Of a stretch of 64,000 nucleotides of DNA, positions 2,410 through 32,181 are shown in pieces. The stretch lies in sequence record OL960581. The stretch is one strand, 5' to 3'. Origin of the DNA: Escherichia phage vB_EcoM_SA20RB. Under the pieces are notes generated by a model. It was given only the letters and a program-made list of their open reading frames with translations. It made no database searches and was not told where the DNA came from. The first letter of the stretch is position 1. Each line of letters begins with the position of its first letter. The position numbers and the translations under genes are program-made.

Positions 2410-3610
2410 ATTTTGTAATAATGTCAAACTGTTCTTTAAAGCAGAAGCTTGAATCTTGATGCTGATACAAAAATTCATAAGCTTTTTCGCGTTCACGGTC
2501 ATAAAGAGCTCGGTCAGATGACAGTTCTTTAATACGTTCAAATGTTGATTCCATGTCATTTTCATCAAACCAAACGATACCGCTATCATGAGAAATTAAC
2601 GGAGTATTATCAACACGGAATTTTAAATTTTCGCCAGTAGATTTCCAAAATACTGGAATTGTTCCACATGCACCAAGCTCGAGATGAGTATATTCTAAAG
2701 AACGTTGTAGATATTTTTTGTCCAACTTACTCAGCTGATAACCAAATCCGGATTTACTCATGCGCTCAAGCATTTCGCTATTTACATAACGGTCAAGAAT
2801 TTGCGTTGGCAAATTAGGAGCAATTTTAATTTGGTCTACTTGATGAAGACGATAATACTCGTATGGAATTCCTTTTTCTTTAATAGGAATGAACGCAGGA
2901 GAACGTTCCAGACCTTCCATAATAGTACTTAGCCCAGCAGGTTTAAGATGTTTTTCGTGAAAATCAAACATCTGATAAAAACCTTTCCATGTAGTCGTAC
3001 GACCAATCCAACGGTTGACATTCATGTTAATTTCAGAAACATCTTTCCAGTAGGTTGATCGAACCTTCGCAATATCCATAGGAGGCTGAAAGTTGTATAC
3101 AGTCGGTGCTTCTTCAATATCATCAAACAGAGAAACTGTTTCTGGATACCATTCTTTCATCAAAACTTTATTAAAATCACCATTATCAGAATGACTAAAA
3201 ATAACATCAGCTCGACGAACAGTTTCTTCTAATCCCAAATTTCGGCGCAAAGAAAGAGAAGAATGGTCATGTTGATAAACTACAACACGAACTGAAGGTT
3301 TAATGTTATCAATAATTTTTTTATAGTTATTAATAGTGTCTTCTTCGACTGAAGTAGCAGGAACTGAATTGATAATTAGAATATCACAATCATTTACCAG
3401 CTTAAGTGTTTTATCGTATTCTTTTGCCAATAAAACCGGAATTGAAAATGATTTATAATCATGCGCGCAATTACGAGTAAATGATTTATCTTTAGCATAA
3501 ACCAAAGTTACTTCATGACCATTTTTAATAAACCAATCACGCTGCTCGAGAGAAAATTTAGTTACGCCGCAACCTTCAAGACCTCGAGCCATAAAAATAC
3601 ATACTTTCAT
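2408..3610 (-). CDS. agt: DNA alpha-glucosyltransferase
   Basis: 400 aa, matches T4 alpha-gt length and N-terminus MKVCIFMARGLEGCGVTKF. Confidence 0.9.
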   Translation of the reverse strand: MKVCIFMARGLEGCGVTKFSLEQRDWFIKNGHEVTLVYAKDKSFTRNCAHDYKSFSIPVLLAKEYDKTLKLVNDCDILIINSVPATSVEEDTINNYKKIIDNIKPSVRVVVYQHDHSSLSLRRNLGLEETVRRADVIFSHSDNGDFNKVLMKEWYPETVSLFDDIEEAPTVYNFQPPMDIAKVRSTYWKDVSEINMNVNRWIGRTTTWKGFYQMFDFHEKHLKPAGLSTIMEGLERSPAFIPIKEKGIPYEYYRLHQVDQIKIAPNLPTQILDRYVNSEMLERMSKSGFGYQLSKLDKKYLQRSLEYTHLELGACGTIPVFWKSTGENLKFRVDNTPLISHDSGIVWFDENDMESTFERIKELSSDRALYDREREKAYEFLYQHQDSSFCFKEQFDIITK

Positions 3611-24328: not shown

Positions 24329-24715
24329 TTATTCGAGGGAAAGAAGATATTTACTTTGATAAAACATTCCAGTAATATCATCTATCGTGCTTTGAATGGC
24401 TGGAGGCATTTCTTTATAAATGCTGTTAGATTGGTCTAGTATGCGATCAATCATTTTAATTGTGTCGGTAGGAAGTTTACTAGCATCTGGAATTGAAGGT
24501 GTGTATTTTCTACCAGAATACCCCAAATATTGCTCACCAAATTTATCAATCAAATCTGGTAACTCAGAGAAAATAAAATCGTATGCTTTATGTCTAGCAT
24601 AACTTTTAGTTTCAAAATGCGCAGAATGAAAATAAGCTTGTGCAGCCATTAATAAACCTAAGTATTCATCTGCCTTTGAAGGTTTTCCACTTTGTGAAAA
24701 GTCGCTGAATTTCAT
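24329..24715 (-). CDS. Hypothetical protein (rI.-1 position)
   Basis: ORF-track 128 aa; 4-nt overlap with the rI stop. Confidence 0.55.
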
Positions 24716-25005
24716 TCAGTCTCCAATTTAATGTTCATAATTCTAGCGTATGATTGTGCCATCTCCGCGCCTCGCTCTATACATTCAAAATCGGAAGAGC
24801 ACGGGTCATTTTTATAGGTCGTTCGCATAAAACTATAGAACTGTTCAGATGATTCTACGCTTTTATTTTCAAAAAGCATATAAACATGTCTAATGCCAGA
24901 TTCCATAAATTTATCAAAATGAGGATCGACATTTGCTTCAATCGGTGGAGATAAAGCAAACGCTAATCCTAGCATGGCAAATAGTGCCGTTGCTTTTAAG
25001 GCCAT
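24712..25005 (-). CDS. rI: Lysis inhibition regulator rI (membrane-anchored periplasmic protein)
   Basis: 97 aa; N-terminal signal-anchor MALKATALFAMLGLAFALS; length and position match T4 rI. Confidence 0.8.
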   Translation of the reverse strand: MALKATALFAMLGLAFALSPPIEANVDPHFDKFMESGIRHVYMLFENKSVESSEQFYSFMRTTYKNDPCSSDFECIERGAEMAQSYARIMNIKLETE

Positions 25006-26443: not shown

Positions 26444-26631
26444 TATTCTTCTACATGTTGTTTACGACCTTTCCTATCAATAAAGGTATATTCAACAAAT
26501 GTTCCAATATAGTCTTTATCTACATCATGAGGACTATTAATTGGGCATTTAGTACGGCAAATGCGTTCCCATTGACGAATAATTTCTGCTTTGTTTTTAG
26601 GATCAAACGGATGCGGGTAATGTACTTTCAT
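26419..26631 (-). CDS. Hypothetical protein (tk.3 position)
   Basis: ORF-track 70 aa. Confidence 0.5.
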   Translation of the reverse strand: MKVHYPHPFDPKNKAEIIRQWERICRTKCPINSPHDVDKDYIGTFVEYTFIDRKGRKQHVEEYCLKVTWL

Positions 26632-27082
26632 AATCCACCACTATTAAATCAATATCAGGAGTAAACATGTCGATTAATTTAGAAACCTTATCCCAATCAC
26701 CGCCAGCAATACCACAACCTATGCGTGGAATGTAAATTACTGGTTTAAACAAAAGGGTCTCTGCCTGTAGATTTAATTCTATCATGCAGTTTACTAAAGC
26801 ACCATAATCAAGATTAGGACCCGGTTCGTATTGCGTATACAGGTTATAGCATATACCAAATCCCGTAGGACTATGTTTAAAAACAATAGACATATCGCCT
26901 AATTTATCGCGAGAACCGTACTCGGTAGTAGTTTTATCTATTTCTAAAATTTTAGGATAGGCCCTCGCTAATTGACCCGCTACACCTGAACCCATAGTAT
27001 GAAAGCAGTTGCACCCGTGCGCAATAATATTACCTTGAAGAAATAGGGCGACAATATCGCCCTTGATATATTTTACAATCAT
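26603..27082 (-). CDS. Macro-domain-like protein (putative ADP-ribose binding/hydrolase), tk.4 position
   Basis: 159 aa; HGCNCFHTMGSGVAGQL and IPRIGCGIAGGDWDKV resemble macro-domain glycine-rich loops. Confidence 0.55.
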   Translation of the reverse strand: MIVKYIKGDIVALFLQGNIIAHGCNCFHTMGSGVAGQLARAYPKILEIDKTTTEYGSRDKLGDMSIVFKHSPTGFGICYNLYTQYEPGPNLDYGALVNCMIELNLQAETLLFKPVIYIPRIGCGIAGGDWDKVSKLIDMFTPDIDLIVVDYESTLPASV

Positions 27083-27426
27083 CTAGTACTCAATCCTCGA
27101 TTATAAGAATCTACCAAACGGTCAACCATTGAATGACAAGCGGCTTTATCTTTCTCCTCCGCAACTGAACATTCTAAGGTATTCCACTTTTTAGCATATC
27201 GTTTTAACAATGTATCATTTTTATATCTACTTGATTTATCTCTTTCTCCGTCTTTATATGCATATATTAATTTCTGCGCAAATTCAGCTTGGCATGCTTT
27301 ATTTTTCCCACAATAATCTGCCGCAGTGCGATTTACATATTCTCTAATTTCAGTATATGATGTATCTGCTGACGCAGAAGCAGAAAATGAAATTAATCCT
27401 ATACATAAAACCAAAATTTTAGTCAT
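27079..27426 (-). CDS. Secreted small protein in the T4 vs position (115 aa as T4 Vs); function uncertain
   Basis: N-terminal signal peptide MTKILVLCIGLISFSASASA; synteny only. Confidence 0.45.
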   Translation of the reverse strand: MTKILVLCIGLISFSASASADTSYTEIREYVNRTAADYCGKNKACQAEFAQKLIYAYKDGERDKSSRYKNDTLLKRYAKKWNTLECSVAEEKDKAACHSMVDRLVDSYNRGLSTR

Positions 27427-27964
27427 TTACTATTTCCAAAAGTTTATTATTTTTAAGGTAATTAGCCTTTTCTAGGACTTCAGAAGCATATTTAGAACCT
27501 GCTTTAACATTCCATCCCGAATTATAAGAGGATATTGCTTTTCTTATATCACCCTTATGTATATTTAACCAATAAGAAAGTTCAATGTACGCCCAGGAAG
27601 CTGAATTGGATCGTTTATTCAACATTCTTTTTATTTCGGCATCGGTCATATTATAACCAAGTTCCTTAACTCTTGCTCGCATAGTAGGCAAATAATTTTG
27701 GAACATTCCGTAGGCGTGATGCTTTGGTTTAGATTTTAAATTAACTCCGGCAGAGCTTTCTTGCCATAAAATAGCAGCCATTATATGACCCAATCCGCTC
27801 TTGTGGATGTTTTTGTGTGTTTTATATTTTCCATCCTTAGAAAATTGTTCCCCGAATTGATATGCGTAGCGCATGTTATCGAGTTGGACATTACTGAAAG
27901 TATGCTCGGAGCTATGTGCCATCATTGAAATGGCCAATAGACCAGCGAGTAGTGCTTTTCTCAT
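27419..27964 (-). CDS. Secreted lytic transglycosylase-like protein (vs.1 position)
   Basis: 181 aa; signal peptide; SLT-like WQESS...AYGMFQ motif. Confidence 0.55.
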   Translation of the reverse strand: MRKALLAGLLAISMMAHSSEHTFSNVQLDNMRYAYQFGEQFSKDGKYKTHKNIHKSGLGHIMAAILWQESSAGVNLKSKPKHHAYGMFQNYLPTMRARVKELGYNMTDAEIKRMLNKRSNSASWAYIELSYWLNIHKGDIRKAISSYNSGWNVKAGSKYASEVLEKANYLKNNKLLEIVND

Positions 27965-27971
27965 GCTTACC

Positions 27972-28433
27972 TCATTGAGTTTTAATTACGGCTTTAGAAG
28001 CCTTTCCTGGTAAACGACGACTGTTGATAATTGCCATCCTACATTGAAGTGACGGGTCTTTGAACTTCGCGTTAGGTTTACAAACTGTAAATCCAAGCCA
28101 AAGATTTCCATCTGTGATTTCTAAACGTCCAGGACGATATTCAACCCCATCAATAAAATCCTCGTCAATGTCAGGACGCGGAGGCATACTCAGGAATTCA
28201 TTAACTTCTAAAACATGGTCTTTTATTTTGTGGAATAATTCAAAAACATATGTCTCATCAATCTCCCGTTGAATTGCACGATCAAGAAGATGTTGAGAAT
28301 ATTTTAGATGAAACGATGAGACCCCTGCTGCTTTTGATGCCTCACGAATCTCATTGTTAATTTGACGAAACTCCGACTCAAAGTGACGACGAAGTTTATT
28401 TCGACGGATAAAAACTTCTGTATTGATAGTCAT
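27972..28433 (-). CDS. regB: Site-specific endoribonuclease RegB
   Basis: 153 aa; N-terminus MTINTEVFIRRNKLRRHFESEF; length and position match T4 RegB; early promoter directly upstream. Confidence 0.85.
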   Translation of the reverse strand: MTINTEVFIRRNKLRRHFESEFRQINNEIREASKAAGVSSFHLKYSQHLLDRAIQREIDETYVFELFHKIKDHVLEVNEFLSMPPRPDIDEDFIDGVEYRPGRLEITDGNLWLGFTVCKPNAKFKDPSLQCRMAIINSRRLPGKASKAVIKTQ

Positions 28434-28460: not shown

Positions 28461-28490
28461 ATTATACCACAGTCAAGAGGAAAAGTAAAC
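28461..28490 (-). promoter_or_regulatory. T4-type early promoter (-35 GTTTAC, -10 TATAAT) for regB
   Basis: Minus strand reads GTTTACttttcctcttgactgtggTATAATttttctatcagttaagaggagaataacATG. Confidence 0.65.

Positions 28491-31193: not shown

Positions 31194-32162
<969 letters not shown>

Positions 32163-32181
<19 letters not shown>

What the first reader, a model, noticed from the sequence alone, without database searches (positions are those of the whole stretch)
27079..27964. Two consecutive signal-peptide proteins, one lytic-transglycosylase-like
Both ORFs start with cleavable-looking signal peptides. The second carries an SLT-like ES...AYGMFQ motif, so it may act on peptidoglycan from the periplasm. 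The first sits where T4 vs (a modifier of valyl-tRNA synthetase) is expected, and a secreted product would be odd for that function; either the synteny call is wrong or the leader is not a signal peptide.
Basis: partly seen in the sequence, partly recalled or inferred. Interest (0 to 1): 0.4.

Follow-up and report, generated by a model that had tools for sequence, protein, structure and literature searches.

The report
T4 vs and vs.1: exported proteins
These two genes are phage T4's own vs.1 and vs: vs.1 looks like a secreted cell-wall-cutting enzyme, as already published, and vs, long labelled a modifier of a cytoplasmic tRNA synthetase, carries every sequence hallmark of a secreted, disulfide-bonded protein, so that label needs re-testing.

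Summary
Both ORFs are on the minus strand of a T4-like genome. ORF 27079..27426 is 100% identical to T4 Vs, and ORF 27419..27964 is 180/181 identical to T4 Vs.1, so the synteny call is correct.

**Vs.1.** It passes Pfam's SLT threshold. Its E-S, G-x-F-Q and Y-N-x-G motifs are invariant. Its AlphaFold model matches lytic transglycosylases (MltD, Slt, Slt70). This similarity was published in 2003 and 2006.

**Leaders.** Both proteins keep a Sec-type leader across all full-length homologues, although the leader sequence itself drifts.

**Vs.**
- The residue at -1 of the predicted cleavage site is Ala in 12 of 12 homologues.
- Four cysteines in the mature part are conserved and flank the two helical-hairpin loops.
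- The model is disordered for residues 1-21.
- No internal start codon could give a leaderless form.
- One distant homologue has a lipoprotein lipobox in place of the leader.
- The family has only 8 representatives among 1.84 billion proteins, all seen in T4-like contexts and always directly 3' of vs.1.

The conflict lies in T4's own annotation: the "valyl-tRNA synthetase modifier" looks periplasmic. In published transposon data, vs and vs.1 insertions share a low abundance, and vs is the T4 gene most depleted in minimal medium. The genes are known. The localisation conflict is real, testable and moderately interesting.

The parts
27419..27964 (-). vs.1 coding sequence (181 aa), a predicted periplasmic family-1 (GH23/SLT) lytic transglycosylase
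   Evidence: The ORF is. It is 180/181 identical to T4 Vs.1. It matches PHROG 600 at E=5.6e-69 and Pfam SLT PF01464 at 23.4 bits against a cut-off of 21.3. The AF2 model has pLDDT 87.9, and its best PDB matches are lytic transglycosylases.
27911..27964 (-). Vs.1 signal peptide, residues 1-18 (MRKALLAGLLAISMMAHS); predicted cleavage after A-H-S
   Evidence: Hydrophobicity and the -3/-1 rule are. In 24 aligned homologues the leader is 31% identical against 57% for the mature part, yet it keeps its basic N-terminus, has no acidic residue and keeps small residues at -3 and -1. The AF2 model has low confidence for residues 1-20.
27503..27784 (-). SLT domain of Vs.1 (residues 61-154), holding the E-S, G-x-F-Q and Y-N-x-G motifs
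   Evidence: Pfam matches residues 61-154 to profile positions 16-101 of 117. E69, G86, F88, Q89, Y147, N148 and G150 are invariant in 24 homologues that go down to about 42% identity.
27758..27760 (-). codon GAA for Glu69, the predicted single catalytic acid of Vs.1
   Evidence: Read directly from the sequence. It is invariant in alignment A2. It is also kept in the Kuttervirus, Felixounavirus, Aeromonas-phage and Acinetobacter-phage relatives.
27079..27426 (-). vs coding sequence (115 aa), annotated in T4 as valyl-tRNA synthetase modifier and read here as an exported four-helix protein
   Evidence: It is 100% identical to T4 Vs. It matches PHROG 1256 and the precomputed Pfam family PF26829, ValRS_modifier. 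The AF2 model has pLDDT 79.3, with helices 22-39, 43-62, 69-86 and 91-112.
27367..27426 (-). Vs signal peptide, residues 1-20 (MTKILVLCIGLISFSASASA); predicted cleavage A-S-A|D
   Evidence: Sequence features are. In 12 of 12 homologues the aligned -1 residue is Ala and -3 is A, V, T, S or G, with no acidic residue in the leader. Leader identity is 40% against 58% for the mature part. pLDDT is below 50 for residues 1-21. A distant homologue, P0096, has the lipobox LSGC here.
27079..27366 (-). mature Vs (residues 21-115, 11.0 kDa, pI 8.9) with Cys39, Cys45, Cys86 and Cys97
   Evidence: The four cysteines are conserved in all full-length homologues, including the remote ones in the pattern CX5-6C...CX9-10C. 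They lie at the ends of helix 1 and helix 3 and near the starts of helix 2 and helix 4.
27419..27426 (-). 8-nt overlap of the vs.1 stop with the vs start (..AAATGACTAA..), with no clear Shine-Dalgarno sequence for vs; probable translational coupling
   Evidence: The junction sequence is. Vs.1 and vs abut or overlap in the same way in L003, L004, L005, L007 and L011.
27079..27082 (-). ATGA overlap of the vs stop with the tk.4 start, which is also a mosaic boundary
   Evidence: The junction is. Vs is 100% identical to T4 but Tk.4 only 58%.
28461..28489 (-). sigma-70-like promoter (TTTACT-17-TATAAT with an upstream TG) ahead of regB; a candidate early promoter for regB-vs.1-vs-tk.4
   Evidence: This is a consensus scan only, with 10 of 12 matches. 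The number of promoter-like sites in the region is not above the shuffled expectation. The original T4 record places a -10 element at the equivalent spot and a further candidate promoter for ORF 61.4 inside the regB 3' end.

Best explanation
The two ORFs are phage T4's vs.1 and vs. They lie in the same orientation, downstream of a candidate early promoter ahead of regB, and are probably translationally coupled. Both are made as precursors with Sec-type, signal-peptidase-I leaders and work outside the cytoplasm.

Vs.1 (about 18.8 kDa mature) is a soluble periplasmic family-1 lytic transglycosylase. It has the GH23/SLT fold and a single catalytic Glu69, and it cleaves the MurNAc-GlcNAc bond of the host sacculus.

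Vs (95 residues, 11.0 kDa mature) is a four-helix protein whose two helical hairpins are each stapled by a disulfide (Cys39-Cys45 and Cys86-Cys97). It most likely acts in the envelope in the same pathway as Vs.1, as a partner or modulator rather than an enzyme.

On this reading, the sequence does not explain the label "valyl-tRNA synthetase modifier" on this ORF. Either the small factor meets ValRS only after cells are broken open, or a fraction of the protein escapes export, or the classical vs function was attached to the wrong ORF.

**Shown:** identity with the T4 genes, leader and cysteine conservation, the SLT fold and motifs, and the conserved adjacency. **Inferred:** export, cleavage, the disulfides, the enzymatic activity and any Vs-Vs.1 functional link.
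For: **Identity.** Vs is 100% and Vs.1 99% identical to the T4 proteins.

**Leaders.**
- Only rI (known to be periplasmic), vs and vs.1 give a convincing signal-peptide pattern among 105 window ORFs.
- The pattern is kept in 11/13 and 72/77 homologue clusters, while leader identity is lower than that of the mature part (0.40 against 0.58 for Vs, 0.31 against 0.57 for Vs.1).
- For Vs, Ala is at -1 in 12 of 12 homologues.

**Vs specifically.**
- Four cysteines are conserved in the mature part even in remote members.
- Homologue P0096 swaps the leader for a lipobox, LSGC. This makes sense only for an exported protein.
- The AF2 model leaves residues 1-21 disordered and folds 22-112 into four helices.
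- There is no in-frame ATG, GTG or TTG between codons 6 and 72, so no leaderless isoform is possible.
- N-terminally His-tagged full-length Vs was insoluble in E. coli (PMC8076793).

**Vs.1 as a lytic transglycosylase.** Evidence comes from Pfam SLT, invariant E69/G86/F88/Q89/Y147/N148/G150, and Foldseek probability about 1.0 to MltD, Slt, Slt70, a GH23 chitinase and g-type lysozyme.

**Linkage.**
- Vs lies directly 3' of vs.1, abutting or overlapping it, in every context read: T4, L004/L005, L003/L002, Acinetobacter phage AC4 and L011.
- In HIDEN-SEQ Data S8, insertions in vs and vs.1 have similar, roughly 10-fold lower abundance than the flanking genes in LB (26.6 and 22.6, against regB 178.6 and tk.4 289.6).
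- Both fall in M9 (log2FC -2.19 and -0.87), whereas tk.4 does not.

**Host range.** The listed hosts of phages carrying Vs.1 relatives are almost all Gram-negative bacteria.
Against: - No dedicated signal-peptide predictor and no experiment was available. Export, cleavage and the disulfides are inferred.
- Classical T4 work (own knowledge, papers not held here: Neidhardt, Marchin, McClain, Mueller 1966-1980) reports a roughly 10-kDa phage factor bound to ValRS, and genetic interaction of vs mutations with host valS(ts). That points to a cytoplasmic role if those mutations lie in this ORF.
- A defect specific to minimal medium also fits a role in aminoacylation when amino acids must be synthesised.
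- Vs.1 relatives occur without any detectable Vs in many phages (2084 records against 795), so Vs.1 does not need Vs.
- The vs.1 insertion phenotype could be partly a polar effect on vs.
- T4-like early regions are broadly syntenic, so adjacency alone is weak evidence of a functional link.
Confidence: 0.6

Rival explanations
1. The annotation is right as it stands. Vs acts in the cytoplasm by binding host valyl-tRNA synthetase. Its hydrophobic N-terminus is not used for export, is used inefficiently, or forms part of the binding surface. Vs.1 is an unrelated neighbour.
For: - Classical biochemistry and genetics of T4 vs (own knowledge; the papers are not in the held library).
- All databases carry the name.
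- The vs deletion has a plaque defect only on minimal medium, where amino-acid supply limits growth (10.1101/2025.11.20.689424).
- The mature-size estimate of 11.0 kDa and the full-length 13.1 kDa are both near the roughly 10 kDa reported for the factor.
Against: - The leader keeps signal-peptide grammar in every full-length homologue, with Ala at -1 in 12 of 12.
- One homologue has a lipoprotein signal instead.
- Four conserved cysteines are placed as hairpin staples.
- The leader is disordered in the model.
- No alternative start exists.
- The original sequence record left this ORF unnamed as ORF 60.9, so the name was attached later, on grounds I could not retrieve.
Confidence: 0.2
2. Vs is a dedicated periplasmic inhibitor or immunity protein for the Vs.1 transglycosylase, or for another muralytic enzyme. 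This would parallel T4 Spackle (gp61.3), which is secreted, helical and disulfide-bonded and blocks the gp5 lysozyme.
For: - The size, leader, helical fold and cysteines parallel those of Spackle (PMC7650644).
- The vs.1-vs order is conserved and translationally coupled.
- Vs evolves faster than Vs.1 in some lineages. In L011 the Vs.1 homologue stays close to the Tevenvirinae consensus, while Vs scores only E=1.7e-4 against the family profile.
Against: - Foldseek gives no match to Spackle or to any known lysozyme or transglycosylase inhibitor. The best PDB E-value is 2.2.
- More than a thousand phage genomes carry Vs.1 relatives without Vs.
- In an antidote model, vs.1 insertions, which remove the enzyme, should be fitter than vs insertions. 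In LB both are equally low, at 22.6 and 26.6.
Confidence: 0.2
3. The leaders are uncleaved signal anchors or SAR-type domains. Vs.1 and Vs would then stay tethered to the inner membrane, and Vs.1 would be released only on membrane depolarisation, as with SAR endolysins.
For: - The Vs.1 hydrophobic stretch is rich in Ala, Gly and Ser (ALLAGLLAISMMA), as SAR domains are.
- T4 rI in the same window is a known case of an unstable signal-anchor-release domain (own knowledge; the ORF is).
Against: - The hydrophobic cores are only 11-13 residues long, too short to span a membrane.
- They are followed by conserved small residues at -3 and -1.
- Vs.1 is in an early-gene cluster, not the lysis cassette, and T4 already has holin T and endolysin E.
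Confidence: 0.08

Closest known systems
Family-1 lytic transglycosylases of glycoside hydrolase family 23 (E. coli Slt70, P. aeruginosa Slt and MltD; Pfam PF01464 SLT)
   Same: - Lysozyme-like helical fold.
- A catalytic Glu in an E-S motif at the end of a helix.
- The G-x-(M/F)-Q and (A/S)-Y-N-x-G motifs.
- A Sec leader and a periplasmic site of action.
   Different: - Vs.1 is a bare catalytic domain of about 160 residues, with no superhelical, LysM or lipoprotein module.
- Sequence similarity is marginal: Pfam E=4.8e-5, and no PDB sequence hit.
- It is encoded in a phage early-gene cluster.
- Its activity and product have never been assayed, as far as the held literature shows.
T4 Spackle (gp61.3)
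   Same: It is a small T4 protein with a cleaved N-terminal secretion signal of about 20 residues, helical, with a disulfide. It acts in the periplasm on a muralytic enzyme (PMC7650644). This is the nearest precedent for what Vs may be.
   Different: - There is no detectable sequence or fold similarity to Vs.
- Spackle's target, gp5, is encoded elsewhere in the genome.
- Export and target binding are experimentally shown for Spackle and only inferred for Vs.
The classical T4 'tau' factor, product of gene vs (modifier of host valyl-tRNA synthetase)
   Same: The ORF is the one that all T4 annotations call vs, at 100% identity. The predicted mature mass of 11.0 kDa is close to the roughly 10 kDa reported for the factor (own knowledge).
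   Different: A factor that modifies a cytoplasmic enzyme in vivo should not carry a conserved cleavable leader, paired cysteines or, in a homologue, a lipobox. The link between the classical mutations or factor and this particular ORF could not be checked here.
Virion-associated phage lytic transglycosylases (phiKZ gp144, PRD1 P7) and SLT-type endolysins
   Same: They share the GH23/SLT catalytic domain in a phage. phiKZ gp144 appears among the fold matches (rank 31).
   Different: Those enzymes enter with the virion or are released by a holin late in infection. Vs.1 carries its own Sec leader and sits in an early-gene cluster, so on this reading it would reach the wall independently of holin-mediated lysis.

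Membership tests
SLT / family-1 lytic transglycosylase (GH23, Pfam PF01464) | Match to the family profile above the curated threshold | tested here: met
   Vs.1 scores 23.4 bits against a gathering score of 21.3, with E=4.8e-5 over residues 61-154. The margin is small. Nolan et al. 2006 found E values of 0.012-0.74 for six orthologues.
SLT / family-1 lytic transglycosylase (GH23, Pfam PF01464) | Lysozyme-like GH23 fold | tested here: met
   The AF2 model has pLDDT 87.9. Its top Foldseek PDB matches are MltD, a GH23 chitinase, g-type lysozyme, Slt and Slt70, at probability 0.9-1.0 and TM about 0.45-0.54. The E-values are only 7e-3 to 0.5.
SLT / family-1 lytic transglycosylase (GH23, Pfam PF01464) | Catalytic Glu in an E-S motif, plus the G-L-M-Q-like and A-Y-N-x-G-like motifs | tested here: met
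   E69 is invariant and S70 at least 90% conserved. G86, F88, Q89, Y147, N148 and G150 are invariant in 24 homologues that go down to about 42% identity. The motifs are also kept in remote phage relatives.
SLT / family-1 lytic transglycosylase (GH23, Pfam PF01464) | Non-hydrolytic cleavage giving 1,6-anhydroMurNAc products (as opposed to g-type lysozyme hydrolysis) | not testable with these tools
   No conserved acidic residue follows E69 in the 70-86 stretch. This favours a single-acid transglycosylase, but the product must be measured.
Sec-dependent, signal-peptidase-I secreted proteins | Basic n-region, hydrophobic h-region of 7-15 residues, c-region with small residues at -3 and -1, and no later membrane span | tested here: met
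   Both proteins meet this. It is conserved in homologues. The highest 19-residue hydropathy after residue 30 is -0.15 for Vs and 0.78 for Vs.1. The test was rule-based, with no trained predictor.
Sec-dependent, signal-peptidase-I secreted proteins | Demonstrated export and cleavage | not testable with these tools
   This needs fractionation, PhoA fusions or N-terminal sequencing, as was done for Spackle.
T4 Vs family (Pfam PF26829 ValRS_modifier, PHROG 1256) | Sequence membership | tested here: met
   It is 100% identical to T4 Vs and matches PHROG 1256 at E=1.7e-39. PF26829 is precomputed on all homologues.
T4 Vs family (Pfam PF26829 ValRS_modifier, PHROG 1256) | Binding to, and modification of, host valyl-tRNA synthetase in the cytoplasm | tested here: inconclusive
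   Binding cannot be tested here. The sequence features point to an extracytoplasmic location, which conflicts with the named function. The minimal-medium phenotype fits either reading.
Known periplasmic lysozyme or transglycosylase inhibitors (Spackle, Ivy, MliC/PliC, LprI/DUF1311) | Sequence or fold similarity to a characterised inhibitor | tested here: not met
   No Pfam hit to these families for any of 14 Vs members at E<=10. Foldseek against the PDB gives a best E of 2.2. A DUF1311 structure (3gi7) appears only at E=5.3 and TM 0.26.

The most novel reading that the evidence does not exclude
T4 Vs is not a cytoplasmic modifier of valyl-tRNA synthetase in vivo. It is a secreted, disulfide-stapled periplasmic protein that works with the neglected third T4 muralytic enzyme, Vs.1. 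The classical Vs-ValRS complex would then form only after cell breakage, or the classical gene was assigned to the wrong ORF. The strong minimal-medium requirement for vs would then be an envelope phenotype rather than a translation phenotype.
Probability: 0.35. Interest if true: 0.6.

Novelty: already known. Interest (0 to 1): 0.4.

Why it matters
T4 is the reference phage. The name "valyl-tRNA synthetase modifier" has been copied onto about 800 phage genomes and into a Pfam family. A 2025 transposon screen found vs to be the T4 gene most needed in minimal medium and read this through the ValRS label.

If Vs is in fact periplasmic, that phenotype, a 50-year-old textbook item and hundreds of annotations all need revising. 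T4 would also have an early, secreted wall-remodelling module (Vs.1 plus Vs) in addition to its two recognised lysozymes.

If Vs does act on ValRS, then how a protein with a conserved cleavable leader reaches its target is itself a question. Either way, simple experiments can decide it.

Tried and rejected
- **PDB sequence searches** with Vs, Vs.1 and their profiles gave only chance-level hits.
- **Fold search for Vs** against the PDB found nothing (best E 2.2). Against viral models it found only the protein's own family.
- **LprI/DUF1311.** I considered a resemblance to this lysozyme-inhibitor family (about 100 residues, helical, four cysteines by my recollection). I rejected it: no Pfam hit in 14 members, and 3gi7 matched only at E=5.3 and TM 0.26.
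- **Spackle-like fold:** not found.
- **Weak Pfam and NCBIfam hits** (Cauli_AT, LA_2478 family) are below threshold and were ignored.
- **Lipobox in T4 Vs itself.** L-V-L-C8 is not a lipobox, and Cys8 is not conserved.
- **Internal start** that could give a leaderless Vs: none exists.
- **SAR or signal-anchor reading:** the hydrophobic cores are too short.
- **Defence or anti-defence models:** no PADLOC hit.
- **Remote cellular relatives of Vs:** none. There are only 8 representatives among 1.84 billion proteins.
- **Literature.** The original vs papers, the 1986 sequence paper and the 2003 T4 genome review are not in the held library. Text searches gave no paper that discusses a signal peptide on Vs. 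I therefore could not establish how ORF 60.9 came to be called vs.
- **Complex prediction** (Vs with Vs.1, Vs with ValRS) could not be run.
Full report
**What is there.** The window is a Tequatrovirus genome segment. The 1.2 kb around the finding is 97.8% identical to Shigella phage Shfl2 and about 96.6% to T4. The two ORFs lie on the minus strand at 27419..27964 (181 aa) and 27079..27426 (115 aa). RegB is upstream (27972..28433) and the macrodomain gene tk.4 is downstream (26603..27082). The 115-aa product is 100% identical to T4 Vs, and the 181-aa product is 180/181 identical to T4 Vs.1.

**Checking the observation.**
- Vs begins MTK-ILVLCIGLISF-SASASA|D, and Vs.1 begins MRK-ALLAGLLAISMMA-HS|S.
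- I ran a simple n/h/c plus (-3,-1) rule over 105 non-overlapping ORFs of the window. It picks out only these two, the known periplasmic antiholin rI (24712..25005) as a positive control, and one weak, implausible hit in the Nudix hydrolase ORF.
- The same rule is passed by 11 of 13 Vs and 72 of 77 Vs.1 homologue clusters. The failures are truncated sequences or an Asn in the c-region.
- In the alignments the leaders are less conserved in sequence than the mature parts (0.40 against 0.58 for Vs, 0.31 against 0.57 for Vs.1). They still always keep one or two basic residues at the N-terminus, no acidic residue, a hydrophobic core and small residues at -3 and -1. For Vs the -1 residue is Ala in 12 of 12.
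- This pattern, conserved in physical character but not in sequence, is what signal peptides show. No trained predictor was available, so this remains a rule-plus-conservation argument.

**Vs.1.**
- It passes Pfam's SLT gathering score, narrowly (23.4 against 21.3 bits, residues 61-154).
- E69, G86, F88, Q89, Y147, N148 and G150 are invariant in 24 homologues that go down to about 42% identity, and S70 is at least 90% conserved. Together these make up the three family-1 lytic-transglycosylase motifs.
- The AlphaFold model is confident (pLDDT 87.9). Its best PDB matches are MltD, a GH23 chitinase, g-type lysozyme, P. aeruginosa Slt, Cj0843 and E. coli Slt70, at probability 0.9-1.0.
- No conserved second acidic residue follows E69. 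This favours a transglycosylase over a g-type lysozyme, but that is an inference.
- Relatives with the same leader and motifs occur in 2084 phage records, and the listed hosts are almost all Gram-negative. They include Straboviridae of Aeromonas and Acinetobacter, and also Kuttervirus and Felixounavirus.
- The SLT similarity of vs.1 is already published (Nolan et al. 2006, PMC1524935, which cites the T4 genome review), and UniRef names the protein accordingly. A 2020 paper still counts only two lysozyme genes in T4, e and 5. Vs.1 is a known but neglected candidate third muralytic enzyme.

**Vs.**
- This is where the finding has substance. The mature part has four cysteines (39, 45, 86, 97). 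They are conserved in every full-length homologue.
- They are also kept in remote members as CX5-6C...CX9-10C: an Acinetobacter phage AC4 ORF, the metagenomic contig L003, P0095 and P0096.
- The AlphaFold model (pLDDT 79.3) leaves residues 1-21 below pLDDT 50 and folds the rest into four helices: 22-39, 43-62, 69-86 and 91-112. Each cysteine pair therefore brackets one hairpin loop. I infer two stapling disulfides.
- One distant homologue, P0096, has a canonical lipoprotein lipobox (LSGC) in place of the signal-peptidase-I site. Such a swap makes sense only for a protein that leaves the cytoplasm.
- There is no in-frame start codon between codons 6 and 72, so a leaderless cytoplasmic isoform cannot be made by internal initiation.
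- Full-length Vs with an N-terminal His tag was insoluble in E. coli (PMC8076793). This is compatible with the reading but not diagnostic.
- The fold has no match in the PDB (best E 2.2). In the viral model library it matches only its own family.
- The family is tiny, with 8 representatives among 1.84 billion proteins. It has no cellular relative.

**Linkage of the two genes.**
- The vs start overlaps the vs.1 stop by 8 nt, and there is no clear Shine-Dalgarno sequence.
- In every context I read, vs lies directly 3' of vs.1, abutting or overlapping it. The contexts are T4, two distant Tevenvirinae-like contigs (L004, L005), a contig whose Vs.1 is only 40% identical (L003/L002), Acinetobacter phage AC4 (L007) and L011.
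- Vs.1 relatives nevertheless exist without Vs in Kuttervirus, Felixounavirus and Aeromonas phage AS-gz. Vs is found in 795 phage records against 2084 for Vs.1. The enzyme does not depend on Vs.

**Published functional data.**
- The HIDEN-SEQ preprint (10.1101/2025.11.20.689424) reports vs as the T4 gene most depleted in M9 glucose relative to LB. It confirms a plaque defect of a vs deletion on M9, and interprets this through the ValRS label.
- Its Data S8 gives vs a log2FC of -2.19 (adjusted p 0) and vs.1 -0.87 (p 0.0055, adjusted 0.155). The flanking tk.4 is unchanged (-0.07) and regB rises (+1.17).
- In the LB control, insertions in vs and vs.1 have similar mean counts (26.6 and 22.6). These are about ten-fold below regB (178.6), tk.4 (289.6) and vs.3 (652).
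- The two genes therefore share a fitness signature that their neighbours lack. Polarity of vs.1 insertions on vs could contribute to this.
- The equal LB values argue against a simple toxin-antidote relationship.

**Interpretation.**
- My best explanation (confidence about 0.6 overall; about 0.85 for export of Vs.1 and 0.8 for Vs; about 0.35 for a shared pathway) is that Vs.1 is a Sec-exported soluble lytic transglycosylase. Vs would be a Sec-exported, disulfide-stapled four-helix protein acting in the envelope, probably with Vs.1.
- The classical function rests on 1966-1980 work that I know only from memory and could not retrieve. That work describes a roughly 10-kDa factor bound to ValRS in extracts, and genetic interplay with valS(ts).
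- The original 1986 sequence record left the ORF unnamed as ORF 60.9, so the name came later.
- The predicted mature mass (11.0 kDa) would fit the factor. A periplasmic protein could meet ValRS once cells are broken open.
- The main rival (0.2) is that the label is right and the leader is not used, or only partly used, for export. The minimal-medium phenotype suits that reading too.
- A Spackle-like inhibitor role for Vs (0.2) has a good precedent (PMC7650644) but no structural support, and the LB insertion data count against it.
- A signal-anchor or SAR reading (0.08) is unlikely because the hydrophobic cores are only 11-13 residues long.

**Verdict.**
- The genes are T4's own, and the SLT call is published, so as objects they are already known.
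- I found one point discussed nowhere in the held literature: the protein annotated on about 800 genomes, and in Pfam, as a modifier of a cytoplasmic synthetase carries consistent, family-wide marks of secretion.
- That is a genuine annotation conflict in the reference phage. It is directly testable by fractionation, leader mutants and a spheroplast-versus-whole-cell ValRS assay.
- Interest is 0.4.

Noticed in passing
window 26603..27082 (-), boundary at 27079..27082: The macrodomain gene tk.4 is only 58% identical (90/155) to T4 Tk.4, although the abutting vs is 100% identical to T4. This is a sharp mosaic breakpoint at the ATGA stop/start overlap. T4 Tk.4 was recently named AdfM, an anti-DarTG2 factor, so this window carries a divergent allele of an anti-defence gene.
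   Followed up: partly
window 24712..25005 (-): The rI antiholin ORF (97 aa) is the only other convincing signal-peptide ORF among 105 in the window. It served as the positive control for the leader rule.
   Followed up: yes
L007 2321..2746 and 2746..3045; L011 3324..3743: In Acinetobacter phage AC4 and in a metagenomic T4-like contig, a third exported ORF of about 140 aa follows vs. The two ORFs resemble each other at the start of the mature part (AAWEQL... in L007, NAWEKL... in L011). In AC4 a fourth ORF with a hydrophobic N-terminus follows. This makes a small cluster of secreted proteins between vs.1 and the macrodomain gene.
   Followed up: no
L006 2417..2857 (Aeromonas phage AS-gz): A 146-aa ORF with a lipoprotein-like leader (..LSVYGC..) sits one ORF before the macrodomain gene, with a 75-aa ORF lacking any leader between it and vs.1. 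It has no evident similarity to Vs. An exported protein is kept in this interval, but a different one.
   Followed up: no
public records hit: The names are muddled across databases. Vs is often called "valyl-tRNA synthetase" (the enzyme itself). Vs.1 or its fragments are called "endoribonuclease RegB domain-containing protein", "valyl--tRNA ligase modifier" or "endoribonuclease". Some T4-like contigs are filed under Escherichia, Shigella, Bacillus or Enterococcus.
   Followed up: no
window 27045..27063, both strands: A 19-nt G+C-rich hairpin (AGGGCGATATTGTCGCCCT) lies inside the 5' end of tk.4. It scores as terminator-like on both strands. It lies just downstream of the mosaic boundary.
   Followed up: no
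window 31726..32166 (-): The NudE-like ORF has a short hydrophobic N-terminal stretch ([10 protein letters not shown]) that trips a lenient signal-peptide rule. It is followed at once by EDKD and has no nearby cleavage site. I judged it a false positive.
   Followed up: partly
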